In this document: piece by piece, positions 45,870 to 61,490 of the stretch
Position numbering within the stretch: the first letter of the stretch is position 1
Layout of the letters: each line of letters opens with the position of its first letter
Assembly: GCA_965205015.1 (NCBI GenBank)
Contig: OZ242029.1
Span: 928,001 to 992,000 of the forward strand
DNA: 64,000 nt
Direction of reading: 5' to 3'
DNA from: Candidatus Poribacteria bacterium
GTDB lineage: Bacteria; Poribacteria; WGA-4E; WGA-3G
The notes under the pieces: generated by a model
The model's database searches: none
What the model saw: only the letters and a program-made list of their open reading frames with translations
What the model was told of the DNA's origin: nothing
Translations under genes and position numbers: made by a program

Positions 45870-47570
45870 ATGACCTTATACCGTTTTTGGCGAGGTAGCG
45901 GTGGCACATCTGAAAATGCGCCTGCCGACTACTTCCTACATCGTTGTAAAAAGTTACGATATAGAAATTCAGTACGCCCTGGCTTGGTAAGCCTTTTTGT
46001 TGTATTCACAGGTATCTTTTGCCTTTCTGCAGAGGCTTACATAAAAGGCCCTTGGCTATGGATGATTGCCAAAGGTGCAGATATAGATAACGATCAGTTG
46101 GCTGTCGCAAGTAAGGGCACGGTCACTGAAAACCTTGTCGCCGCATACGGTGTAAACGAAGGAGATAGCGTAGGACAGTTGCAATGGACACGCGGGCGGA
46201 TTTTCCCAGAAATCGACTGCTTATTCTGGCAGTGGGGCTGCTACTCGGATAATGTTAACAGGGTCGTCAATAGGATAGGGTTGAGCAACGACCGGGGGTT
46301 GAATCGCCATTCTGCGTACGCTTTAATTAACATCCGCTCCTCGCGAGAACGCAGAAACGTCGCGATGGGGGTCGGGAGTGATGACGCTGTTAAAGTTTGG
46401 CTCAACGGTCAAGTGGTCCATATAAACAGGGTGGACAGAGCCACAACGGGCATTCAAGACCTATTTCGCGTCAATCTGAAAGTCGGGGACAACCTTCTCC
46501 TCGTTAAAGTAAGCGATAATCTATGGAATTGGGGGATGTTCTTCGATATCTATCTTGAGAAGGACGATTTTAGCACCGCTCTCCCTATGAGGACTTCCGA
46601 TACTTCCCTCGCTATACACCTGTTTCAAAAATACAGTGCCACGCTCCAAGATCCGGAGATTCAGAAAGTGTTTCCGACTGTATTGACGCGGTTTCAAGAA
46701 CCGGAGATACAAGCTCTTTTGACCCCTTTTACAATAAACACTGTTGCTGAGAATCCAGACATCCTCACACAGTTCGGTGTGTCGGAGAAAACGATAAGGT
46801 TCATTAAAGGAAATGCCGGTGTCCGCGCGATGCTCCGCGATCCAGACTTTCAAACGTTGTTGCAAAATCGGAATGCTTTATCAGAATTCGCGGCACTCGT
46901 TACTGGCGAGGAACTTACCGTTCTTCCTAAAGAACGCTCTTTAGCTGCAGATGTTGATGGAAACGGAGCTGTAAATATCCTGGACCTCGTGCGCATTGCA
47001 ACGCGCGTAGGTCGAACAGGTCCTGATCCTGCGGATGTGAACCGTGATGGCACCGTTAATATTCGTGATATTGTCTTGGCTGCAGCCTTAATGGGTACGG
47101 AAGCAGCCGCCCCTTCTGCTTTTGCTGGGATAGGAGCAGCCCCCAGTCACCCGCCCCTACGCCCTGAAGACATCCAACTTTGGCTGACACAAATCCAACG
47201 CGTTGACTTGCGCGATCCGACCTTCCAAAGAGGGGTAAGAGTCCTAAAGCACCTGATGGAGATGTTGACACCGAAAAAGACAGGACTTCTGCCCAATTAT
47301 CCCAATCCATTCAACCCTGAAACATGGATACCGTATCAACTCTCTAAACCTGCTGATGTTACAGTGACTATCTATGCCGCGAACGGCACTTTGGTCCGCA
47401 CCTTGGTGTTAGGACATCAACCCGCGGGTATATACCAGAACCGTAGTCGTGCAGCACACTGGGACGGCAAAAACGAATTCGGTGAGCCTGTAGCGAGTGG
47501 GGTCTATTTCTATACACTCAAGGTCTCTGGGGAATTCACTGCCACTCGCAAAATGTTCATACGGAAGTAG
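45870..47570 (+). CDS. Secreted protein with dockerin-like repeats and C-terminal FlgD-Ig/T9SS-like domain
   Basis: GSDDAVKVWLNG; DVDGNGAVNILD, DVNRDGTVNIRD; LLPNYPNPFNPETWIPY...SGVYFY. Confidence 0.8.
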   Translation: MTLYRFWRGSGGTSENAPADYFLHRCKKLRYRNSVRPGLVSLFVVFTGIFCLSAEAYIKGPWLWMIAKGADIDNDQLAVASKGTVTENLVAAYGVNEGDSVGQLQWTRGRIFPEIDCLFWQWGCYSDNVNRVVNRIGLSNDRGLNRHSAYALINIRSSRERRNVAMGVGSDDAVKVWLNGQVVHINRVDRATTGIQDLFRVNLKVGDNLLLVKVSDNLWNWGMFFDIYLEKDDFSTALPMRTSDTSLAIHLFQKYSATLQDPEIQKVFPTVLTRFQEPEIQALLTPFTINTVAENPDILTQFGVSEKTIRFIKGNAGVRAMLRDPDFQTLLQNRNALSEFAALVTGEELTVLPKERSLAADVDGNGAVNILDLVRIATRVGRTGPDPADVNRDGTVNIRDIVLAAALMGTEAAAPSAFAGIGAAPSHPPLRPEDIQLWLTQIQRVDLRDPTFQRGVRVLKHLMEMLTPKKTGLLPNYPNPFNPETWIPYQLSKPADVTVTIYAANGTLVRTLVLGHQPAGIYQNRSRAAHWDGKNEFGEPVASGVYFYTLKVSGEFTATRKMFIRK

Positions 47571-53124: not shown

Positions 53125-54000
53125 CTACCTTACAGAAGTTGCCCACCGATTTGGACCAGGACCGGGCTGATGTTCATCACGAACGCGCTTAAATTCCTCA
53201 GGCGTCGTAACAACATCCTCGGGATGCAACCGACTCCGCGCGAGAAAGCCTGCTTCCGGTTGATAGCCGGTCGGTTTCGACGCATCTTGATAGCGGGAAT
53301 CAACACTCCATCGGACCTGGTGACTGACATTCGGAATGGAGCGGTGCGGGGTCAGATTGGTAAGTAGAAGTATGCTGCCAAACTTGACAGGGACCACTAC
53401 CGGATCAACTTCGGGCAATTCGTCCTGTGGAATTTCAAGATAGAAACGTTCAGAGTGACGATGCCGGAAAACACCATCCCGATGGGCATGCGGGATGACT
53501 TCCAAACATCCGTTCTCCACGGTAGCATCTATCAATGGAATCCAAATTGTGAGCTGCAAGACAGAATCGCATTTAGGTTCCATATAGCCAGCGTCCTGAT
53601 GCCACGGGACGAGCGTCCGATCGTGTTCAGGGAGTTTCGGACGCACCCGATATGCTGGGTGACACATAATCTCCGGTCCAACGAGCGACTCGGCAAGGTC
53701 AAGCAACTTCGGATGACTAAGTAGATCAAAGAGTGCCGGTCCCGTGTGTGCACCACTGAACACCTTCTGGAACACGACCGGCGACTGCGCCGTAATTTTT
53801 GCCAAACGGGTGTCAAACCCTTCCGTTTTGAATTCGGAGTCAATTTCACCGTCCGCGTAGAGTTCCGATGCGCCAGTGTCGACAATTTCCTCAAACTCTG
53901 CGATCAGTGGGTTCAGGTCGTCCGGTGCCAAGGCATCTTCGATGAGTAGATAGCCGTTTTCATTAAAATCGTGGATTTGCGAATTGGTTAATGCTTTCAT
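53125..54000 (-). CDS. PhyH family dioxygenase
   Basis: PWHQD, WIPL.DAT.ENGCL, TPHRS, RWS.D.RY. Confidence 0.88.
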   Translation of the reverse strand: MKALTNSQIHDFNENGYLLIEDALAPDDLNPLIAEFEEIVDTGASELYADGEIDSEFKTEGFDTRLAKITAQSPVVFQKVFSGAHTGPALFDLLSHPKLLDLAESLVGPEIMCHPAYRVRPKLPEHDRTLVPWHQDAGYMEPKCDSVLQLTIWIPLIDATVENGCLEVIPHAHRDGVFRHRHSERFYLEIPQDELPEVDPVVVPVKFGSILLLTNLTPHRSIPNVSHQVRWSVDSRYQDASKPTGYQPEAGFLARSRLHPEDVVTTPEEFKRVRDEHQPGPGPNRWATSVR

Positions 54001-54405
54001 AATTTTTATAAGAGGGTTTTGCTTTATTGCGTTGTTCTTCGTTGACGAACCCATTTTTGATGAAGTGTGAGTGCTGACATCTTTGACAGTTCATCGTCTG
54101 TGCCTCCTGAAGCCAGCGTTCTTTTTTTATGAGGATACCAGATCAATTGATATGCGTCAAGTGAAAAATTAGTTTGATTTTTTTGATATTTTTTTTAAAT
54201 TTGTTATTCTTTAGACGAATACAATTGGATGTGATATATTAGTGTTGGTTGGGGAAACACCCAAGCAAAAATGCCGTACTGTATCGTCGAAAAAAGACGT
54301 GAAACCCAATAATTTCTTAAAATTGAATGGTTCTAACAAAAAGTTAACGTTAACGGGAATTTGACTTGTAAAATCCTATTACACCGCTAAAAGGAGAAAA
54401 TTCTA

Positions 54406-56916
54406 ATGAAAAAAATGCTGCTTTCTATATTTCTAACGCATATTATCGTTTCAACACTTTTGCTATCAAACGCCTTTGCACAAGACGACACAACGTGGTA
54501 CCTACCCGAAGGTGCCAAAGCCCGGTTCGGTAAAGGTAGTGTGGCGGAGATAAAGTATTCCCCAGATGGTGCCCGTTTAGCAGTTGCGAGTGGTATCGGT
54601 ATTTGGCTTTATGATGCGGAGACCTATCAAGCGTTATCCCTACTCACAGGGCATACGCGTCCGGTTATTAGCGTAGCATTCAGTCCAGATGGGAAGATGC
54701 TTGCAAGTGGGAGTGAGGATCGCACGGTCCGTTTATGGGATGCGTTGACAGGTGAACAAAAACAGACACTCACAGGGCATGCGCATTGGGTCGCTAGTGT
54801 AGCGTTCAGTCCAGATGGGCAGACCCTCGCAAGTGGCAGTTGGGATAAGACGGTCCGTTTATGGGATGCGTTGACAGGTGAACACAAGCAAACACTCACA
54901 GGACATACGTATGCGGTCTATAGTGTAGCGTTCAGTCCAGATGGGCAGACCCTCGCAAGTGGCAGTGACGACACGGTCCATTTATGGGATGCGTTGACGG
55001 GTGAACAAAAACAGACACTCACAGGGCATATGCGTTCTTTGAGGAGCGTAGCGTTCAGTCCAGATGGGCAGACCCTCGCAAGTGGGGATTGGTACGGCGT
55101 GACCAATTTATGGGATGCGTTGACAGGTGAACACAAGCAAACAGCCACAGGTGGTCGGTGTTGGGTCGTTAGCGAAGTATCGTTCAGTCCGGATGGAGGG
55201 ACACTCGCAAGTGCGGGAGGTTTTGTGCGCGGTGCTATCGATTTATGGGATGCGTTGACAGGTGGATATAAGCAAACACTCACAGGGCATATAAGTACGG
55301 TCTATAGTGTAGCGTTCAGTCCCGATGGGCAAACCCTCGCAAGTAGTGCTGCGGATGGTACGATTCGTTTCTGGGATGCGTTGACAGGTGAACACAAGCA
55401 AACACTCACAGGACATACGTATGAGGTCTATAATGTAGCGTTCAGTCCAGATGGCAAGACGCTTGCAAGTACAAACTACACGACTATCCGTTTATGGGAT
55501 GCATTGACGGGTGAACAAAAACAGACACTCATAGGGGATATAAATTTTTTGGACACCGTAGCGTTCAGTCCCGATGGGCAAATCCTCGCAAGTGGGGATC
55601 GTAGTCGCATTGTGTTTTTGTGGGATGTGTTGACGGGTGAACGAAAACAAATACCCGCACCAATACTCACAGAGCATCTAAGTACGACCCGTAGTGTAGC
55701 GTTCAGTCCCGATGGGCAAACCCTCGCAAGTAGCAGTGGGGATAAGACGGTCCGTTTATGGGATGTGTTGACGGGTGAACAAAAACAGACACTCACAGGA
55801 CATACGCATGCGGTCCATAATGTAGCGTTCAGTCCCGATGGGCAAACCCTCGCAAGTGGCAGTGGGGATAAGACGGTCCGTTTATGGGATGTGTTGACGG
55901 GTGAACAAAAACAAATACTCACAGGGCATACAAGTTCGCTCCTTAGTGTAGCGTTCAGTCCCGATGGGCAAACCCTCGCAAGTGGCAGTGGGGATAAGAC
56001 GGTCCGTTTATGGGATGTGTTGACGGGTGAACAAAAGCAAACACTCACAGGGCATATAAGTACGGTCTATAGTGTAGCGTTCAGTCCCGATGGGCAAACC
56101 CTCGCAAGTAGCGGTTATGTTAGGATTCGTTTATGGGATGTGTTGACGGGTGAACCAAAACAAATACTCACAGGGCATACACGTACGGTCCTTAGTGTAG
56201 CGTTCAGTCCCGATGGGCAAACCCTCGCAAGTGGCAGTGAGGATGGCACTGTGCTTTTGTGGGATGTTACGCCTTTTTCCACAAAGCCTGATTCCGTGTA
56301 TCCTGTATGGGATGTAAATGAGGATGGTCAAATCAACATATTGGATTTGGTTGCTGTGGCACAAAACCTCGAAAAACCTTTAACAGTGAACCCACGGGCA
56401 GATGTGAACAGTGATAATAGTATCAATATTTTAGACTTAGTGCTTGTCTCGCAACATTTGGGCGGATCAACACGTGCTGCTCCTACAAGTATTGTCAGAT
56501 TAGATCTTGACCCGGTACGCGTTGAAGGGTGGTTAGCACTGGCGCGGATTGAAAACGACGGTTCTTTAGCATTCCGACAAGGTATAGCGAATCTGGAACG
56601 GCTTTTAGCATCGCTGATCCCGGAAGAAACAGGACTCTTGCCAAACTACCCCAATCCCTTCAACCCGGAAACGTGGATACCGTATCAGTTGGCAAAATTT
56701 ACAGCGGTTAGCATCTCTATTTATGCTGCCAATGGGCACTTGGTTCGGAGGTTAGACTTAGGGCATCAACCTGCGGGTTTATATAAATCACGTAGCCGTG
56801 CAGCGTATTGGGATGGTAAAAACGATCTCGGTGAGCCTATTGCGAGCGGCGTGTATTTCTATTCATTTACTGCTGGGGATTTCACCGCAACGCGGAAGAT
56901 GCTGATACGGAAATAG
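54406..56916 (+). CDS. Secreted WD40-repeat protein with dockerin-like and FlgD-Ig/T9SS-like C-terminal domains
   Basis: ~13 highly similar WD40 repeats; DVNEDGQINILD; LLPNYPNPFNPETWIPY. Confidence 0.9.
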   Translation: MKKMLLSIFLTHIIVSTLLLSNAFAQDDTTWYLPEGAKARFGKGSVAEIKYSPDGARLAVASGIGIWLYDAETYQALSLLTGHTRPVISVAFSPDGKMLASGSEDRTVRLWDALTGEQKQTLTGHAHWVASVAFSPDGQTLASGSWDKTVRLWDALTGEHKQTLTGHTYAVYSVAFSPDGQTLASGSDDTVHLWDALTGEQKQTLTGHMRSLRSVAFSPDGQTLASGDWYGVTNLWDALTGEHKQTATGGRCWVVSEVSFSPDGGTLASAGGFVRGAIDLWDALTGGYKQTLTGHISTVYSVAFSPDGQTLASSAADGTIRFWDALTGEHKQTLTGHTYEVYNVAFSPDGKTLASTNYTTIRLWDALTGEQKQTLIGDINFLDTVAFSPDGQILASGDRSRIVFLWDVLTGERKQIPAPILTEHLSTTRSVAFSPDGQTLASSSGDKTVRLWDVLTGEQKQTLTGHTHAVHNVAFSPDGQTLASGSGDKTVRLWDVLTGEQKQILTGHTSSLLSVAFSPDGQTLASGSGDKTVRLWDVLTGEQKQTLTGHISTVYSVAFSPDGQTLASSGYVRIRLWDVLTGEPKQILTGHTRTVLSVAFSPDGQTLASGSEDGTVLLWDVTPFSTKPDSVYPVWDVNEDGQINILDLVAVAQNLEKPLTVNPRADVNSDNSINILDLVLVSQHLGGSTRAAPTSIVRLDLDPVRVEGWLALARIENDGSLAFRQGIANLERLLASLIPEETGLLPNYPNPFNPETWIPYQLAKFTAVSISIYAANGHLVRRLDLGHQPAGLYKSRSRAAYWDGKNDLGEPIASGVYFYSFTAGDFTATRKMLIRK

Positions 56917-56934
56917 TATCATATGACCATAGGA

Positions 56935-57011
56935 GTGCTGGGATGCTGATGTCTATTAGCTTCCCAGCGATCACTGATGAGTGGAAATGATGTGCTTGCA
57001 GGCACATTTGC
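56935..57011 (-). ncRNA. Candidate small structured RNA (or operator array) inside the element's left end
   Basis: Three stems: ATGTGC/GCACAT, CACT/AGTG, GCTGGGA/TCCCAGC; immediately downstream of a near-consensus promoter. Confidence 0.4.
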
Positions 57012-57015
57012 TTGA

Positions 57016-57044
57016 AGTATAACAATACGGGTAAGGGGTGTCAA
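57016..57044 (-). promoter_or_regulatory. Near-consensus sigma-70 promoter pointing toward the left inverted repeat
   Basis: Minus strand TTGACA-17bp-TATACT with TG extension. Confidence 0.75.
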
Positions 57045-57052
57045 CCCTATTT

Positions 57053-57910
57053 TCAACGGATCTGCTCCTTTTTTACTAAGTTTTCATCCATGGTTTTGAG
57101 TTGATCCTCTGGAATGAGGTCGAGATATTGAGTAATAACGCGTCTCGAAAGTCGTGTAATCTGTGAGATTTCGTCAATATCTGCGGTCGCTCTGCGAACG
57201 ACTTTCACCGACTCATAATCCCGGATGTATCGGTCAACAGCCTCCTTGGAGTGCTTGGTCTTGGCAGCAATAGTTGGGGTGAGATACCCTTGAAGATAGA
57301 GGGTGATGATCTCTCTCTTGTGGGTAATCGCCCCCGATAGGTCGTGGATATTGCCCCGAGTGGGTAAGATGTCTCCTGTGGTTCTCTGCCATTCATTGAC
57401 GTAGTCCTGGACGACAGCATCACAGACATTGAGCAAAACTGCCAAGTCGAGTTGCGTCAATAAGGCGCCCTGGTCATAAGCTTGATGACACCAGCGGACC
57501 AAGCGATTGATCCGGAGTTGCCGGGAGGTAAACCCGTTGCGAAACGATTCAACATCCTCTGTAGCAAGATAGGTCAGGAGGATGGGTTTCATACGGGTCT
57601 TGATGATCGCTTTGCCTCTTTCTGGGTATTCATCAATCGGCACCGCCATCCAGACGAGTTGTCCATAGCGGAGGTATCGCTCCTCGGGGAGTTCGTCGCC
57701 CGTGGCAAGTTTCTCCAAAGGGAGGGTAATGACGAAATACTCCTCAACAGTCTTGAGGATATCCTCAACAATAGCAGTCGCAGTGACTTCGCCTTTATCA
57801 TACCCGTAGTCATTCAAAAAGCGATGGATGAGCAACTGTCGTAGGGATTTATCGTTGATGCGTCTGAACTTCTTCTCGTTGATTTGCGTGCGCGTCAAAG
57901 GCTTGCTCAT
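57053..57910 (-). CDS. DUF1670-like domain protein (second of pair)
   Basis: AYDQGALLTQLDLAVLL, PTRGNIHD, THKREII.LYL.G, HS.EAVDRYIRD. Confidence 0.8.
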   Translation of the reverse strand: MSKPLTRTQINEKKFRRINDKSLRQLLIHRFLNDYGYDKGEVTATAIVEDILKTVEEYFVITLPLEKLATGDELPEERYLRYGQLVWMAVPIDEYPERGKAIIKTRMKPILLTYLATEDVESFRNGFTSRQLRINRLVRWCHQAYDQGALLTQLDLAVLLNVCDAVVQDYVNEWQRTTGDILPTRGNIHDLSGAITHKREIITLYLQGYLTPTIAAKTKHSKEAVDRYIRDYESVKVVRRATADIDEISQITRLSRRVITQYLDLIPEDQLKTMDENLVKKEQIR

Positions 57911-58707
57911 CGGAGATCCCCCTTTTTTTCCTCCATGGGTTCGGGGTGAAGCAGCTGGGTCATGCGATCGGTGTCTTGGTATTGCTCATACAGCGAGAGA
58001 TACTCGCGAATGAGGCGGTCCGAGAGGTGGGTGATCAGGCGTATCTGTCCCCTCGGGAAGTCTTGGTGATGGAGCGTGGCGACCTGTGTGAAGTCTCTGA
58101 GGTAGCGGTAGATGGCGCGTTCGGAGTGGTTGGTCTTTTGCTCAATCTCGGTGAAGGTGTAGTCCTTGAAATACAAATCGAGAATCTGCGTCTTGTGAGA
58201 CAGTCCCGGTCCCATGTCGTGTTTCGCCCCGCGCGTCATGACGAAATACCCGTCCTGCTTCAAGGCGCGGATGTCGCGTTTGACGTTTGCCGGACTCGTG
58301 GTGAGTAAGATGGCTAAATCTTCATAACTCAGCAAGGCGTCTTGGTCATAAGCCTCTTTGGTCAATCGCAGGATGCGGTGGCGTCTGAGGCCTGCCAGAC
58401 CATAACTCGCTAAGACTTCGAAGTCTTCTTCGACCTCATTGAGCGTCAGTCGACAGGAGACTTTCTTCGCTAAAGCGATGTGTTTCCCTGCGGGTTCTTC
58501 GGCAGCGACCGCCTCGTAGCAGATCTGTCCTGAGGTAAGTTGGATATCGGCGTGTTGTTCGAAGTAGGTAGAAATCTGCTTATAGTAGGCTTCGGCCATT
58601 ATAGGTGCCAGATGAAAGTCTGCGGCGATCTTCTGAATGATAGCAGCTCTGGCGTTCTTGGATTCGAGGCGTTTGATACCGTAGGCGGTATCTTTCTTAG
58701 GATTCAT
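57907..58707 (-). CDS. DUF1670-like domain protein (first of pair)
   Basis: EAYDQDALLSYEDLAILL, TRGAKHDMGPG.SHK, HS.RAI.RYLRDF; GGAGG RBS before ATG 58707; ATGA coupling to partner. Confidence 0.8.
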   Translation of the reverse strand: MNPKKDTAYGIKRLESKNARAAIIQKIAADFHLAPIMAEAYYKQISTYFEQHADIQLTSGQICYEAVAAEEPAGKHIALAKKVSCRLTLNEVEEDFEVLASYGLAGLRRHRILRLTKEAYDQDALLSYEDLAILLTTSPANVKRDIRALKQDGYFVMTRGAKHDMGPGLSHKTQILDLYFKDYTFTEIEQKTNHSERAIYRYLRDFTQVATLHHQDFPRGQIRLITHLSDRLIREYLSLYEQYQDTDRMTQLLHPEPMEEKKGDLR

Positions 58708-58774
58708 AGTGACCTCCATGAGGTGAGTCTTGGTGATGAAAATACATCTACCTGTTAGGTGAACTCATACTATC

Positions 58775-58803
58775 AGTATAAATCCTATGGTCATTTGATA
58801 CAA
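58775..58803 (-). promoter_or_regulatory. Promoter of DUF1670 operon overlapping the right inverted repeat
   Basis: Minus strand TTGTAT-17bp-TATACT; the IR fills the spacer and part of the -35. Confidence 0.55.
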
Positions 58804-58954
58804 ACTATAAGTAGATACAAAGTGTATTTGTCGTCTATTATATTTATTTTCTCCGAGTGCCCGGTAGGTCGCTCGGACAGTAGTCTGCTCGTTAGGTTTC
58901 ACTGTGTTTAACCCAACCTGCTTAATTGACAACTATGGTGCGGTTAGATGAAGT

Positions 58955-59380
58955 TTAAAAATTAACTTGGACCAATTCAACCAGAATGCCATCTGGGTCC
59001 CTCGCGCACGCAACGCCCACTGCGTCCGGTGCGCCTATAGGTTCAGACAGAAATTCAACACCGTTCTGTTTTAAGGCTTCGACGGTTCCCTGAATATCTT
59101 CTACAAAAAAGGTAAGCCAGCGGACACCCGCTGCGAATTCACCCGTGGGTGTCGGCGGAGGCGATTCAATATCCATGAGTTTGATAAGTGTGTTACCGGC
59201 TTTAAGCCGGACCTGACGAAAACCTGTCGGCGCAAGCCCTACACCGCGGGCAAGGTCATCTGGAATTTCCAACTCCAGCACGATCTCCAGCCCCAATTTG
59301 TTGTGATAGAAGTCCAGCGAGGCTTCAAAGTCGCTACAGGTAATAGCAATGTCAATAGTGGGATGCGATAGGTTTAGCAC
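58955..59380 (-). CDS. VOC/glyoxalase family protein
   Basis: SLDFY...LGL, F.VEDI, RDPDGILVEL. Confidence 0.88.
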   Translation of the reverse strand: MLNLSHPTIDIAITCSDFEASLDFYHNKLGLEIVLELEIPDDLARGVGLAPTGFRQVRLKAGNTLIKLMDIESPPPTPTGEFAAGVRWLTFFVEDIQGTVEALKQNGVEFLSEPIGAPDAVGVACARDPDGILVELVQVNF

Positions 59381-59386
59381 GAATTT

Positions 59387-61219
59387 CTAACCTCCAGTCA
59401 GAACGAAGATTGCTTCTCGAAATTGACCGAGTGGACGTGTGTCATAGGTAATGTCCACTGGAACGACAATTCTCTTTCCCAAAGCGTCACGACGTATCGG
59501 TATTGGAACGGAAAAATCGATGTGACCATCTGATCGCGCTGGAATCGTTGCTTCCGCCGGGGGAAGCTCCATATTCCATGCGCTCGGAAGAATCGGTTGG
59601 GCAATTGCCGTACATGGTTCAGACGAATGATTCGTTATCTCCACGCTTAGCTGTGCCGTTTCCCCAAGTGCGATCTCCTGTTCATAAGGATAACACCGGA
59701 TCCAATGTTCATCCATGCCGTAATTGGCGTGGTCCCAAGGGAAAAGGGCAGTATAGCATTTTTCACGTTCGGCAAGTATGTCCAGCATACACTGAATCTC
59801 AGCGTCAGTAAAATCAAAGGCTGGATCGACATGACAATTAAAGATATGCGTCGGTTCGAGCTGCTGAATACGCCGCAGACATTTCTCGTAACCGACATCT
59901 TTGCCGAGCAAATTCCGATTTCCGGAACAATAGTCGTCTATTCCCGCCATTGTGAAGGAGTCACCTGCAAAAAACATCCGAACACCGCGTCCCTCAACGA
60001 GAAGTCCACCGTGATAATAGGTCTGTCCCGGGAAATGGTATGCCGTCATTGTGAACTCATTCCACTGCCAAGAGTCCGCATCACGGGTAATGCGATCCAC
60101 TCGGGTAACCGAAGGTGAAATACAGGGAAGCCGGAAACCGATTGGATTTGTGATGACACGTGCGACAACCGAATCCGTTATCGTTTCACACGGGAAAGTT
60201 GTCTGAAATTCAGGGATAGCATCAACGTGATCGTCGTGGTAGTGCGTCACCCAAAACTGGGTGACCTCTGAAATTTCGCCGTCTGCTTGCAGCTGTTGGA
60301 TCTGTTTGATAACATTCGGTGAGCCGCAATCCATCACGAATGCTTCACCGTTTTCGGAAATAATCATCCACGTTGTGCCGAAATGACGCAGGAATTCGGG
60401 GGGTGGCTTGCCTTCTCGGATAGGCATGTGTCCCGCGCGTCCCTCAAATTCAGCAAAGAGTTTCGGGAAATAGTGCCGGAGGGCGGAGATTGAGACGTAT
60501 CTATCGTAACAGTGTGCTAACTGCTGTAGGAGCGAATCGATTGCCCTGTCTGGGTTGTTCATAACAACACCGTGCGTGGGAATAAGTGCCGTTGGCGATA
60601 CCCGACGGACTTTCTCAAGACTCCCAGTGAGTTCATCGCGTGCACCGAGAAATCCGTGATAGTCGCTCGTTTGCTGTCCTTTTTGTAAACTGTAGAGTTC
60701 CCACAACTGCCCCTCGTCATAAATGAGATCGCCGGAGAAGGCGAATCGCTCCCCATCAACATCAACGAGATAAGTGACGCTTCCATCGGTATGCCCTGGT
60801 GTTTCAAGGACTGTCAAGGCTGCCGGACCCCATTCAAACTGCACACCGTCGGCATACGTATCCGTCCCAGGGACAGCATTGGCGAGCATGAGATTGTGAG
60901 GGTGATAATTATAGAGATGCCATCGATATTGCGGATCGTTCCAAAAGGTCTCAACCTCGCCAAACCACGCCGCCTCTTTCGCTGGAACGCCGACGCGAAC
61001 ATTATCAGGCATTCGGAAGCCTGCAGTGTTATCTCGATGGTGATGCGTAAACAGAATCTGTTCAACGTCAGTGATCCCGATTTCCGCGAGTGTGGTACAG
61101 AGAGTAGTGCCACTCGGATCAATGAGGAGTGCGCGGCCGCCATCCCGGAGAATACCTGTGTTGACATGCCCGTGATGAACGTATAGGTGATGGCTGAGTT
61201 GAGAAAAGCGAGATTGCAC
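59387..61219 (-). CDS. Tandem MBL-fold metallo-hydrolase
   Basis: THHHRD/TPGHT/FSGD and THYHDDH/PGQT/FAGD; likely GTG start 61219 after AAGGA. Confidence 0.82.
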   Translation of the reverse strand: MQSRFSQLSHHLYVHHGHVNTGILRDGGRALLIDPSGTTLCTTLAEIGITDVEQILFTHHHRDNTAGFRMPDNVRVGVPAKEAAWFGEVETFWNDPQYRWHLYNYHPHNLMLANAVPGTDTYADGVQFEWGPAALTVLETPGHTDGSVTYLVDVDGERFAFSGDLIYDEGQLWELYSLQKGQQTSDYHGFLGARDELTGSLEKVRRVSPTALIPTHGVVMNNPDRAIDSLLQQLAHCYDRYVSISALRHYFPKLFAEFEGRAGHMPIREGKPPPEFLRHFGTTWMIISENGEAFVMDCGSPNVIKQIQQLQADGEISEVTQFWVTHYHDDHVDAIPEFQTTFPCETITDSVVARVITNPIGFRLPCISPSVTRVDRITRDADSWQWNEFTMTAYHFPGQTYYHGGLLVEGRGVRMFFAGDSFTMAGIDDYCSGNRNLLGKDVGYEKCLRRIQQLEPTHIFNCHVDPAFDFTDAEIQCMLDILAEREKCYTALFPWDHANYGMDEHWIRCYPYEQEIALGETAQLSVEITNHSSEPCTAIAQPILPSAWNMELPPAEATIPARSDGHIDFSVPIPIRRDALGKRIVVPVDITYDTRPLGQFREAIFVLTGG

Positions 61220-61223
61220 TGTA

Positions 61224-61490
61224 TCAAAAATCCTTATAGGCGACTGAACGGTGCCGAATTCGGGAAACTTCAATCGTTTGCGTTTGTCTGTCAAAGGTAT
61301 AGATAATCCGGTATATATCAGCAACTCGTAAACTAAACTGCCCTCTGTATCTACCTTTTAGTGCCCTATGTGGATATGTTTCGCAAATGTCACATAACCG
61401 CTCAAGTTTGTTGAGAACTTGCGCTTGAATGTTCGTACTCAAACGTCGCAGATCCCGTCTTGCATTTGAGGTCAGTCTCAATTCATACAT
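61224..61490 (-). CDS. RelE/ParE family toxin
   Basis: MYELRLT..ARRDLRRL...LKG....SLRV..YRIIY....I.HRS.AY. Confidence 0.85.
   Translation of the reverse strand: MYELRLTSNARRDLRRLSTNIQAQVLNKLERLCDICETYPHRALKGRYRGQFSLRVADIYRIIYTFDRQTQTIEVSRIRHRSVAYKDF

What the first reader, a model, noticed from the sequence alone, without database searches (positions are those of the whole stretch)
56916..58801. Inverted-repeat-bounded element encoding only two DUF1670-like proteins: candidate undescribed mobile element family
Seen: a 19-bp inverted repeat (GTATCAtATGACCATAGGA / GTATCAaATGACCATAGGA, one mismatch) closely brackets two translationally coupled paralogous ORFs. The left repeat starts at the last base of the WD40 gene's stop codon. 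Neither protein shows a DDE, Y1/HUH, Tyr- or Ser-recombinase motif that I can recognise. Both carry HTH-like segments and conserved TRG..HD, HK and HS...RY..D residues that could form a catalytic site. Known: DUF1670 is a domain of unknown function. Inference: the pair is a heteromeric transposase/recombinase of an unclassified type acting on these ends. I see no clear target-site duplication (flanks ...GGAAATA | AAACTAT...).
Basis: partly seen in the sequence, partly recalled or inferred. Interest (0 to 1): 0.9.

Follow-up and report, generated by a model that had tools for sequence, protein, structure and literature searches.

The report
Insertion sequence targeting secretion-tag gene ends
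This is a real, recently active jumping gene of an undescribed family whose only two genes encode proteins of unknown function, and it lands with base-pair precision at the very end of genes carrying a type IX secretion tag without damaging them.

Summary
A 19-nt inverted repeat (1 mismatch) brackets two 4-nt-overlapping ORFs on the minus strand, and both are Pfam DUF1670 (E about 1e-60).

Comparison with 80 Poribacteria loci and 80 metagenome loci shows a genuine insertion sequence:
- up to 17 copies per genome among the kept loci, some 100% identical at different flanks;
- patchy presence, in 33 of 120 genomes of the phylum sample;
- syntenic empty sites in related species;
- both ORFs under purifying selection (dN/dS about 0.1).

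The true ends are 56913-58808 (1896 bp), slightly wider than reported.

The element always sits in one orientation at the last codon or stop of genes ending in a T9SS type A sorting domain. It supplies A+TAG, so the host protein is unchanged.

The two proteins model as multi-helix-turn-helix DNA binders. No DDE, HUH, serine or tyrosine recombinase signature or fold was recognised. No larger element with the same ends was seen in the three genomes checked.

Most likely the DUF1670 pair is the transposition machinery of a new IS family. Whether it catalyses DNA breakage itself is not shown. No open paper mentions DUF1670.

The parts
56913..58808 (-). The whole insertion sequence (1896 bp). Its genes lie on the minus strand.
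   Evidence: Ends were defined by where copies with different flanks stop being alike. The 7-mer ATAGTTT sits before the ORF-proximal repeat in 78 of 78 copies. TAT follows the ORF-distal repeat in 76 of 78.
56911..56912 (.). Left copy of the 2-bp target duplication (AA, the first two bases of the last Lys codon of the WD40 gene)
   Evidence: the flanking dinucleotide is the same on both sides in 75 of 78 Poribacteria/window copies and 43 of 52 metagenome copies. It varies as AA, CG or TA (host-gene strand; printed as TT, CG, TA in the locus orientation) with the target.
58809..58810 (.). Right copy of the 2-bp target duplication (AA). It is followed by GTAG, the rest of the original Lys codon plus the original stop.
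   Evidence: The reconstructed pre-insertion end, CGG AAG TAG, equals the end of the unoccupied paralog at 47556-47570.
56913..56934 (.). ORF-distal terminal inverted repeat (ATAG + TATCATATGACCATAGGA). Its first four bases complete the host's last codon and give its TAG stop.
   Evidence: The core repeat is conserved in 77 of 81 Poribacteria/window copies and found at both ends in 57 of 80 metagenome loci.
58783..58808 (.). ORF-proximal terminal inverted repeat (19-nt arm plus the 7-nt tip AAACTAT on the + strand)
57907..58719 (-). ORF-A, a DUF1670 protein of 270 aa as listed. The likely true start is the second ATG at 58707, 5 nt after GGAGG (inference).
   Evidence: PF07900, E 7.5e-60; conserved GGAGG before the ATG; median dN/dS 0.103 over 55 pairs; orthologs 59-68% identical in the 4 metagenome loci compared.
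57053..57910 (-). ORF-B, a DUF1670 protein of 285 aa. Its start overlaps the stop of ORF-A by 4 nt.
   Evidence: PF07900, E 1.1e-61; median dN/dS 0.091 over 55 pairs; model pLDDT 85.6.
57016..57044 (-). Outward-facing sigma-70-like promoter (TTGACA, 17 nt, TG-TATACT) downstream of ORF-B. It reads across the ORF-distal end into the host gene, antisense.
   Evidence: 11 of 12 consensus positions; present at the same place in 25 of 25 diverse Poribacteria copies; not seen in the metagenome set (3 of 75).
56644..56912 (+). Target: the T9SS type A sorting domain coding end of the 836-aa WD40 protein gene (54406-56916)
   Evidence: TIGR04183, 31.1 bits (cut-off 23); 10 of 10 other right flanks pass the same model.

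Best explanation
This is an autonomous insertion sequence of a family not yet classified. The elements are about 1.8-2.1 kb, with imperfect terminal inverted repeats, a 2-bp target duplication and two overlapping paralogous DUF1670 genes.

Shown:
- It is multi-copy, recently mobile and absent from syntenic sites in relatives.
- Both genes are kept by purifying selection.
- It inserts in one orientation at a fixed point at the 3' end of genes that end in a T9SS type A sorting domain: after the second base of the last Lys or Arg codon, or of the stop codon.
- It brings its own A+TAG, so the host protein is unchanged.

Inferred: the two DUF1670 proteins form a hetero-oligomer of multi-helix-turn-helix DNA binders. 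This complex recognises the terminal and subterminal repeats and a similar motif (GTATCAA / ATCAGCAT-like) in the sorting-domain coding end. It then cuts the target with a 2-nt stagger at a set distance from that motif. On this reading the proteins are the transposase itself, of a catalytic type not yet recognised, with the invariant His-Lys, His and Tyr residues as candidates.
For: Copy number and recent movement:
- 123 relatives were found in species-representative genomes. The best 80 were kept, from 22 assemblies, with up to 17 in one assembly.
- Copies inside one genome are up to 100% identical while their flanks differ. Examples: 4 of 4 copies identical with 4 different flanks on each side; 6 copies with 15 of 15 pairs at 99% or more.

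Presence and absence:
- PF07900 is in 33 of 120 sampled genomes of the phylum, with 1-22 matches each.
- The site of L007 is empty at the syntenic place in 4 related genomes.

Ends:
- 77 of 81 copies have both ends.
- The left 5-mer varies (TACTT 45, TATTT 23, CACTT 6, others 4) while the right one is TATTT in 76 of 78. The flanking dinucleotide matches on both sides in 75 of 78.

Same design elsewhere, in a clade with about 60% protein identity from unrelated metagenomes:
- 18 of 21 loci examined have the two ORFs.
- 57 of 80 have both ends.
- A pairs with A and B with B.
- The dinucleotide is the same on both sides in 43 of 52, with the matching pairs being TT/TT, CG/CG or TA/TA in the locus orientation.

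Target:
- 10 of 10 tested right flanks pass TIGR04183 at 35.8-62.8 bits (cut-off 23), ending at profile position 70-71 of 72.
- 76 of 78 Poribacteria/window flanks read ...K-stop.

Selection: median dN/dS is 0.103 (ORF-A) and 0.091 (ORF-B), 55 pairs each.

No larger master element: in 3 genomes the matches to the end motif that pair up lie about 1.9-2.0 kb apart, apart from one 386-bp pair; some matches stand alone.

Association of the two proteins:
- Fused double (about 520-540 aa) and triple (about 930-950 aa) DUF1670 proteins exist, and one copy has A fused to B (564 aa).
- Complex prediction gave weak support: score 0.34, best of 3 controls 0.01. That mark was reached by 58 of 80 solved complexes and 2 of 110 mismatched pairs, but at 0.60 or under by only 7 of the 80 and by both mismatches that passed. 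The runs agree in at least 39% of contacts and the partner's pLDDT is at least 69.
Against: No catalytic domain is recognised:
- Pfam at E up to 1 lists only DUF1670 and sub-threshold helix-turn-helix families.
- NCBIfam, PHROGs and a PDB sequence search give nothing above threshold.
- The full model is helices plus one beta hairpin. Foldseek found no PDB match at E 0.001 or better. The best wide-search Z is 6.1, and all such hits are winged-helix or helix-turn-helix pieces of residues 126-282.
- The N-terminal 127 residues modelled alone reach only pLDDT 66.7, with best Z 3.8.

The invariant His and Tyr residues lie in helices of a helix-turn-helix module, so they could be DNA contacts.

The complex prediction is only weak support.

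No empty site at base-pair resolution from the same species was found, and no circle or excision junction in reads.

The window's own copy lies in a 4.96-kb stretch (WD40 gene plus element) that 5 relatives lack as a whole. For this copy, therefore, no element-only empty site is known.
Confidence: 0.55

Rival explanations
1. The element is mobile, but the DUF1670 proteins only bind DNA. They would choose the ends and the target and regulate expression. Strand breakage and joining would be done by an unlinked host enzyme, such as a Xer-type or other recombinase or a topoisomerase. CTX-type elements that borrow XerCD are the analogy; that comparison is recalled, not tested.
For: The models show only winged-helix and helix-turn-helix modules plus a small helical N-terminal part with one hairpin. 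No catalytic family appears in Pfam, NCBIfam, PHROGs or PDB sequences. The strict site and orientation specificity, and the rebuilding of the host gene's end, resemble site-specific integration.
Against: Both genes are kept intact in most copies. Of the 77 copies with both ends, 13 have at least one ORF broken or shortened and one has the two fused. dN/dS is about 0.1.

The family spans many phyla, including Archaea, according to the atlas clusters and the Methanosarcina control. A single host partner would therefore have to be universal.

The duplicated dinucleotide follows the target (AA, CG or TA on the host-gene strand). That fits staggered target cleavage better than a fixed crossover core.

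No candidate host enzyme was tested here.
Confidence: 0.3
2. The same element and proteins, but the chemistry is conservative site-specific recombination through a circular form, with a 2-bp crossover as in serine recombinases, rather than transposition with target duplication.
For: Joined head to tail, the two ends form a near-palindrome around the dinucleotide. Ends abutted with a 12-nt spacer occur in 4 loci: L077, L156, L168 and L178. In the Poribacteria clade a complete outward promoter at the ORF-distal end would drive both genes only in a circle or tandem. Insertion is orientation-specific.
Against: No resolvase or integrase family or fold was found. Of the 4 abutted ends, only L178's upstream part is recognisably another, diverged copy; no similarity beyond the end motif itself was found for L156, L168 or L077. 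These are therefore neighbouring or second insertions, or short remnants, not shown circles. The dinucleotide differs between sites (AA, CG or TA on the host-gene strand). That needs the element to carry over the dinucleotide of its last site. No circle junction appeared in the contigs laid.
Confidence: 0.12
3. This is not a mobile element. It would be a two-gene regulator cassette that belongs to T9SS cargo genes and was copied along with them by gene-family expansion.
For: The pair always lies next to a sorting-domain gene end. The sorting-domain coding end is itself present in 35 or more copies in each of 5 genomes.
Against: Likeness between copies stops sharply at the terminal repeats while the sequence beyond them differs. 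Copies 100% identical sit beside sorting-domain ends that are only about 70-77% alike. Syntenic sites are empty in relatives. Most sorting-domain genes have no cassette. A 2-bp duplication flanks each copy.
Confidence: 0.02

Closest known systems
IS630 / Tc1-mariner insertion sequences (features recalled, not from a call)
   Same: Small elements with terminal inverted repeats, a 2-bp target duplication and sequence-specific targets. The transposase N-terminus is made of paired helix-turn-helix motifs. DUF1670 gives weak sub-threshold hits to HTH_29, HTH_23 and HTH_28 and weak fold rows to Pax paired domains.
   Different: No DDE family was found by Pfam at E up to 1, and the model has only one beta hairpin. 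There are two paralogous genes instead of one. The duplicated dinucleotide is AA, CG or TA according to the target, not always TA. The target is a roughly 70-residue domain's coding end, not a 4-nt site.
Tn7 with TnsD at attTn7 (recalled)
   Same: A DNA-binding protein reads the conserved coding 3' end of a host gene. Insertion occurs at a fixed distance and in one orientation, leaving the host protein intact.
   Different: Tn7 is large and uses the TnsA, TnsB and TnsC enzymes, with a 5-bp duplication and a single-copy target downstream of the gene. Here the element is 1.9 kb with two genes of unknown type. It inserts inside the last codon and rebuilds it, and it has dozens of targets per genome.
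IS1202 family, aimed at dif/pdif sites (PMC10132070; only the search listing and the start of the abstract were seen)
   Same: Target-specific insertion sequences found in one orientation at a fixed distance from a recognised site, recently raised to a new family.
   Different: [quoted passage not shown] I did not read what their transposase is. The target and the proteins here are different.
IS110 / IS1111 elements with bridge or seeker RNA (bioRxiv 10.1101/2024.04.26.591405; listing and start of abstract only)
   Same: Strict target choice, a sizeable non-coding region, and in IS1111 subterminal repeats. In the Poribacteria clade the non-coding end here holds a conserved promoter.
   Different: There is no DEDD transposase. 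No conserved RNA structure was found in the non-coding end (alifold energy -0.7) and there is no Rfam match. A target duplication is present.
Integrative elements that rebuild the 3' end of a tRNA gene (recalled)
   Same: The element carries a copy of the end of its target, so the host gene stays whole after insertion.
   Different: Those use tyrosine integrases and long identical cores. Here only A+TAG is supplied, the shared core is 2 bp, and no integrase is encoded.

Membership tests
Pfam PF07900 (DUF1670) | Match to the family HMM above the gathering score | tested here: met
   208.4 and 202.5 bits against a cut-off of 25, covering profile positions 4-220 and 13-220 of 220
Insertion sequence (general definition) | Terminal inverted repeats at the limits of the repeated unit | tested here: met
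   77 of 81 Poribacteria/window copies and 57 of 80 metagenome loci have both ends
Insertion sequence (general definition) | Several copies per genome at different sites, with presence/absence between relatives | tested here: met
   Up to 17 kept loci in one assembly. 100% identical copies with distinct flanks. Syntenic empty sites in 4 genomes. Present in 33 of 120 genomes.
Insertion sequence (general definition) | Short target-site duplication | tested here: met
   A 2-bp dinucleotide is equal on both sides in 75 of 78 and 43 of 52 copies and varies with the target
Insertion sequence (general definition) | Encodes its own transposase | not testable with these tools
   The element has only the two DUF1670 genes, and no larger element with the same ends was seen in 3 genomes. 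Catalysis cannot be shown by computation.
IS630 / Tc1-mariner | DDE (DD34E-type) catalytic domain | tested here: not met
   No DDE family in Pfam at E up to 1. The model has only two strands. By fold search, absence is inconclusive.
IS630 / Tc1-mariner | TA target duplication | tested here: not met
   The duplicated dinucleotide is AA in the window and in most copies, CG or TA in subgroups
Serine recombinase elements (IS607-like) | Resolvase-type catalytic domain | tested here: not met
   No such family in Pfam or NCBIfam. By fold search, inconclusive.
Tyrosine recombinase / integrase elements | Integrase catalytic domain with the R-K-H-R-H/W-Y set | tested here: not met
   No integrase family in Pfam or NCBIfam. 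A vaccinia topoisomerase IB row at Z 4.9, rmsd 4.9 is within noise, so by fold search this is inconclusive.
IS110 / IS1111 | DEDD transposase and a structured guide RNA in the non-coding end | tested here: not met
   No such protein family, no Rfam match, and no consensus structure in 25 aligned non-coding ends. An unstructured or novel RNA is not excluded.
T9SS type A sorting domain (TIGR04183), for the target gene | HMM match above the cut-off at the C-terminus | tested here: met
   Window gene: 31.1 bits against a cut-off of 23. 10 of 10 other right flanks: 35.8-62.8 bits, ending at profile position 70-71 of 72.

The most novel reading that the evidence does not exclude
DUF1670 proteins are a new class of DNA transposase with no relation to DDE, HUH, serine or tyrosine enzymes. 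They would work as an A/B hetero-oligomer built almost wholly of helix-turn-helix modules, with a catalytic centre formed by the invariant His-Lys, His and Tyr residues. Their family (1021 clusters at 50% identity across many bacterial phyla and methanogenic archaea) would be a large unrecognised group of insertion sequences. One branch of it has evolved to read the coding end of the T9SS sorting domain and insert there without harming the gene.
Probability: 0.4. Interest if true: 0.95.

Novelty: new variant of a known kind. Interest (0 to 1): 0.85.

Why it matters
- It gives a domain of unknown function a concrete biological role. The family has 1021 clusters at 50% identity. All 30 nearest atlas clusters carry PF07900, and their commonest phyla include Bacteroidota, Chloroflexota, Planctomycetota and a methanogen phylum.
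- If the two proteins carry out catalysis, they are a new kind of transposase. Every bacterial insertion sequence family I can recall uses one of a few known enzyme classes.
- The target choice is unusual and useful. Insertion is base-exact and orientation-fixed at the end of a conserved secretion tag, and it leaves the host protein unchanged. This is a natural safe-landing strategy and a possible tool for tagging or tracking T9SS cargo genes.
- These elements break metagenome assemblies. Many homologs sit on contigs of about 1.8-2.3 kb. Genome annotation currently calls them hypothetical or DUF1670 proteins.
- In the Poribacteria clade an outward promoter points antisense into the cargo gene. 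The element may therefore also alter expression of secreted proteins in sponge symbionts.

Tried and rejected
Tools that gave no answer:
- Whole-genome search of the window's own genome: none is held.
- The listing of cluster members: the database was switched off, so organism names of distant relatives could not be read.

Literature. 'DUF1670' and 'PF07900' each return 0 papers. Five further searches found no description of such an element: Poribacteria + insertion sequence; ISNCY/Methanosarcina; T9SS + insertion sequence, twice; new IS family. Only open full texts were searched. Supplements were closed and ISfinder itself could not be consulted, so an entry there cannot be excluded.

Sequence searches without result:
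- tblastn against plasmids: no match.
- Rfam on 56500-59200: no match.
- Consensus RNA structure of 25 non-coding ends: essentially none.

Sequencing runs. No RNA holder is listed. Contigs of 4 runs laid on 55900-59800 cover the element and its right junction. They show no joint that skips the element and no circle junction. These are contigs only, so this says nothing about rare forms.

Empty sites:
- For the window copy there is no element-only empty site. In 5 relatives the whole of 54003-58967 is missing.
- The flanks of L002 have no orthologs in 5 genomes, only paralogous sorting-domain and gene-family hits.
- A try at base-exact empty sites for L068 in 5 genomes was not resolved.
- The syntenic empty sites for L007 have diverged spacers. 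They show absence of the element, not the exact joint.

Fold searches. There is no PDB match for the whole model. The N-terminal domain alone gave a low-confidence model (pLDDT 66.7) and a best Z of 3.8. This neither assigns a fold nor shows a new one.

Readings rejected:
- A 5-bp target duplication TAYTT, because the left copy varies while the right is fixed.
- The abutted ends as circle junctions.
- A guide RNA as in IS110.

Reach to distant relatives:
- The scan with P0138 found nothing.
- The scan with P0279 worked.
- The more distant DUF1670 branches (about 40% identity; Archaea) could not be fetched. Whether they have repeats and which targets they use remains untested.

Full report
1. 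THE OBSERVATION

The window holds a 19-nt inverted repeat with arms at 56916-56934 and 58783-58801, 95% complementary. A search for the arm with up to 3 mismatches finds only these two places in 64 kb. The expected number is 0.02, and 0 of 100 shuffles gave two.

Between the arms lie two minus-strand ORFs, 57907-58719 (270 aa, here ORF-A) and 57053-57910 (285 aa, ORF-B). They overlap by 4 nt. Both are Pfam DUF1670, at 202.5 and 208.4 bits against a cut-off of 25. They are 29% identical to each other (E 1e-26). NCBIfam and PHROGs add nothing above threshold.

The left arm starts at the G of the TAG of an 836-aa WD40 protein gene (54406-56916). The last part of that gene is a T9SS type A sorting domain (TIGR04183, 31.1 bits, cut-off 23).

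2. IS IT MOBILE?

A search of 5.8 billion proteins gave 1517 relatives of ORF-B. The 120 best are 78-94% identical. Several distinct ones lie on the same multi-megabase contigs, and many lie on contigs of about 1.9-2.1 kb, as collapsed repeats do.

A scan of species-representative genomes found 123 coding relatives. The best 80 were kept. They come from 22 assemblies, and 79 of the 80 records are titled Poribacteria. Up to 17 come from one assembly.

Copies inside a genome can be 100% identical over the whole unit while all their flanks differ. For example, 4 of 4 copies are identical in one chromosome, with 4 distinct left and 4 distinct right flanks. In another genome 15 of 15 pairs are at least 99% identical.

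The Pfam family is present in 33 of 120 sampled genomes of the phylum, with 1 to 22 matches (two per element), and in 1 of 14 control genomes, Methanosarcina acetivorans.

For one copy (L007) the syntenic place in four related genomes holds the same two neighbour genes side by side, without the 1.9-kb unit.

Both ORFs are under purifying selection between lineages. Median dN/dS is 0.103 for A and 0.091 for B, 55 pairs each. Of the 77 copies with both ends, 13 have at least one ORF broken or shortened and one has A fused to B (564 aa).

This is a recently active insertion sequence.

3. EXACT ENDS AND TARGET

The following is written in the orientation of the ORFs. Every copy has a variable 5-mer, then ATAGTTT, then the repeat arm; at the far end comes the other arm, then TATTT.
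- The left 5-mer varies even among near-identical copies: TACTT 45, TATTT 23, CACTT 6, others 4.
- The right 5-mer is TATTT in 76 of 78. The other two have a degenerate end.
- The 7-mer is ATAGTTT in 78 of 78 (the same picture appears).

Unoccupied sorting-domain gene ends read ...TA(Y)TT directly followed by the coding sequence.

So the first three letters on the right (TAT) belong to the element, the left 5-mer belongs to the target, and only the last two letters are shared: a 2-bp duplication.

In window coordinates the element is 56913-58808 (1896 bp), with AA at 56911-56912 and at 58809-58810. Removing it restores ...CGG AAG TAG. That is exactly how a second, unoccupied sorting-domain gene in the same window ends (47295-47570).

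The host gene now reads AA+A TAG. The Lys codon and a stop are rebuilt from element bases.

4. THE SAME DESIGN IN OTHER ORGANISMS

A protein 59% identical to ORF-B (P0279) brought in 80 loci from unrelated metagenomes.
- 18 of 21 loci examined have two adjacent ORFs of about 280 and 280-330 aa.
- The upstream ORF is 59-68% identical to ORF-A and the downstream one 58-61% identical to ORF-B.
- 57 of 80 loci show both ends with the same repeat core. Most of the rest are contigs cut at or in the element.
- Unit length is 1759-2093 bp.

Of 52 copies with enough flank, the right 5-mer is TATTT in 36, TATTA in 7, TATCG in 5, and other in 4. The dinucleotide at positions 4-5 equals that on the left in 43.

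Read on the strand of the host gene, the duplicated dinucleotide falls into three groups:
- AA, the start of a final Lys codon;
- CG, the start of a final Arg codon, giving tails such as ...KKLIIMR-stop;
- TA, the start of the stop codon itself, giving tails such as ...RKIIKL-stop-stop.

In each case the element's A+TAG leaves the protein unchanged. The insertion point keeps its distance from the conserved Arg/Lys-Lys of the tail rather than following the stop codon. This suggests measurement from a recognised DNA motif.

By eye, 71 of 78 Poribacteria/window flanks and 46 of 52 metagenome flanks show the typical tail. All 10 flanks that I tested by HMM (8 metagenome, 2 Poribacteria) pass TIGR04183 at 35.8-62.8 bits, ending at profile position 70-71 of 72.

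Orientation is always the same: the element's genes converge on the host gene. The sorting-domain coding end is present in at least 35-41 copies in each of 5 genomes, so targets are plentiful.

5. OTHER ANATOMY

The ORF-proximal end carries two subterminal ATGAGTTA-like repeats and a GGAGG before the second ATG of ORF-A. The other end holds the reverse motif (ACTCAT) and an ATCAGCAT-like stretch that resembles the sorting-domain coding end. The repeat core GTATCAA is itself found in many targets. These are plausible protein-binding sites shared by the ends and the target. That is inference.

In the Poribacteria clade a strong sigma-70-like promoter lies downstream of ORF-B. It points outward across the end into the host gene, antisense. 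In the window it is at 57044..57016 and matches 11 of 12 consensus positions. It is present in 25 of 25 diverse copies. It is not seen in the metagenome clade (3 of 75).

It could drive the two genes only in a circular or tandem form, or it could act on the host gene. Neither is shown.

Ends abutted with a 12-nt spacer occur in four loci. Only in L178 is the upstream part recognisably another, diverged copy. No similarity beyond the end motif was found for the other three. I therefore read them as second insertions beside a resident copy or as short remnants, not as circles.

In three genomes the matches to the end motif that pair up lie 1.9-2.0 kb apart, apart from one 386-bp derivative. Some matches stand alone. 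No larger element with the same ends was seen.

6. WHAT THE PROTEINS ARE

The family is large: 1021 clusters at 50% identity with E up to 0.001. All 30 nearest atlas clusters carry PF07900. Their commonest phyla include Bacteroidota, Chloroflexota, Planctomycetota, Ignavibacteriota and a methanogen phylum.

Double and triple fusions exist.

In 79 aligned sequences H197, H220 and Y228 (ORF-B numbering) are invariant, and R139, P183, G186, D190, G192 and K198 are nearly so.

The AlphaFold model of ORF-B (pLDDT 85.6) has three parts: an N-terminal helical part with one beta hairpin; a winged helix (about residues 128-192); and two helix-turn-helix-like modules (about 195-281).
- Foldseek finds no PDB match at E 0.001 or better.
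- The wide structural search tops out at Z 6.1, with winged-helix or helix-turn-helix pieces only. The Topo VI-A/Spo11 winged helix is among the tied rows, which I do not take as meaningful.
- The N-terminal 127 residues alone give pLDDT 66.7 and a best Z of 3.8.
- A profile search of PDB sequences gives nothing usable.

With only two strands in the whole model, the usual nuclease and transposase folds (RNase H-like DDE, HUH, PD-(D/E)xK) seem unlikely. That is inference from secondary structure, not a test.

The A+B complex prediction gave weak support: score 0.34, best of 3 controls 0.01. That mark was reached by 58 of 80 solved complexes and 2 of 110 mismatched pairs, but at 0.60 or under by only 7 of the 80 and by both mismatches that passed. 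The runs agree in at least 39% of contacts and the partner's pLDDT is at least 69.

7. MECHANISM

Shown:
- mobility;
- the ends;
- the 2-bp duplication;
- target and orientation specificity;
- rebuilding of the host gene's end;
- selection on both genes.

Inferred:
- A and B act together, based on translational coupling, the fusions, co-inheritance as A/B pairs down to 60% identity, and the weak complex score.
- They bind the ends and the target motif.
- They are the transposase.

The main rival is that they only bind DNA and a host enzyme does the chemistry. A sub-rival is conservative recombination through a circle. A non-mobile regulator cassette is excluded in practice.

8. COMPARISON AND NOVELTY

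By architecture this is an insertion sequence. The nearest working analogies are:
- IS630/Tc1 (2-bp duplication, helix-turn-helix DNA binding; recalled);
- Tn7/TnsD (reads a gene's coding end and inserts at a set distance; recalled);
- IS1202 (a site- and orientation-specific family; start of abstract only);
- tRNA-rebuilding integrative elements (recalled).

It fails the defining protein features of IS630, serine, tyrosine and IS110 elements at the sequence level. No open paper mentions DUF1670 or PF07900, and five further searches found no description. ISfinder and paper supplements could not be consulted.

I rate it a new variant of a known kind. If the proteins are catalytic it would be a new enzyme class.

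9. THE WINDOW'S OWN COPY

Five related genomes have the dioxygenase-like gene (53125-54054) and the VOC-type gene (58955-59380) only 12-135 bp apart. They lack the whole of 54003-58967, that is, the WD40 gene plus the element. For this copy the insertion is therefore inferred from the family pattern and from the paralog at 47295-47570, not from an orthologous empty site. Contigs of four public runs carry the same right junction and show no alternative joint.

Noticed in passing
window 54003-58967: The whole stretch (upstream spacer, the 836-aa WD40/T9SS-tail gene and the element) is absent in 5 related genomes. There the flanking dioxygenase-like and VOC-type genes lie 12-135 bp apart. How the WD40 gene arrived is not explained.
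   Followed up: partly
window 47295-47570: A second gene end with a T9SS-type tail, 74% identical over 90 aa to the occupied one. It ends ...CGG AAG TAG and has no element: an unoccupied paralogous target in the same window.
   Followed up: yes
L194 (G040:C1:2139015-2139403): A 386-390-bp unit with both terminal repeats (24-33 nt like the full element) but an unrelated interior. It again starts at the stop of a gene ending ...RKMLIAK: a MITE-like derivative. Its far tip is degenerate.
   Followed up: partly
L013 about 60-135: A sorting-domain gene end preceded by TATTT + ATAGTTT + GTATCAA but with no element. It looks like a deletion between the GTATCA of the ORF-proximal end and the GTATCA of the target, or a footprint.
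   Followed up: no
L077 3103-3139, L156 1541-1577, L168 638-674, L178 341-377: A right-end-like 13-mer abuts a left end with a 12-nt spacer. Only in L178 is the upstream part a diverged copy's last 100 bp. This suggests repeated insertion at an occupied target.
   Followed up: partly
L027/L028; L039/L045/L040; L019/L022: Copies in one genome share one flank but not the other, as expected if recombination between copies rearranged the chromosome, or from assembly joins at repeats.
   Followed up: no
L139 and L178 right flanks: A subgroup of about 1775 bp is followed by TGTAG and a GC-rich palindromic sequence instead of a sorting-domain end, so some lineages use another target.
   Followed up: no
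proteins P0132, P0134, P0137, P0141 (about 930-950 aa) and P0187, P0234, P0245, P0255 (about 520-545 aa): Single proteins with three or two DUF1670 stretches. These are natural fusions of the module.
   Followed up: no
window 61224-61490 (-): An 88-aa ORF that by eye resembles a small type II toxin of the ParE/RelE kind, overlapping the start of the next ORF. It was not tested with any family search.
   Followed up: no
window 54600-56400 (-): Long antisense ORFs with repeated sequence inside the WD40 gene. They are a mechanical consequence of the WD40 repeats, not genes.
   Followed up: no
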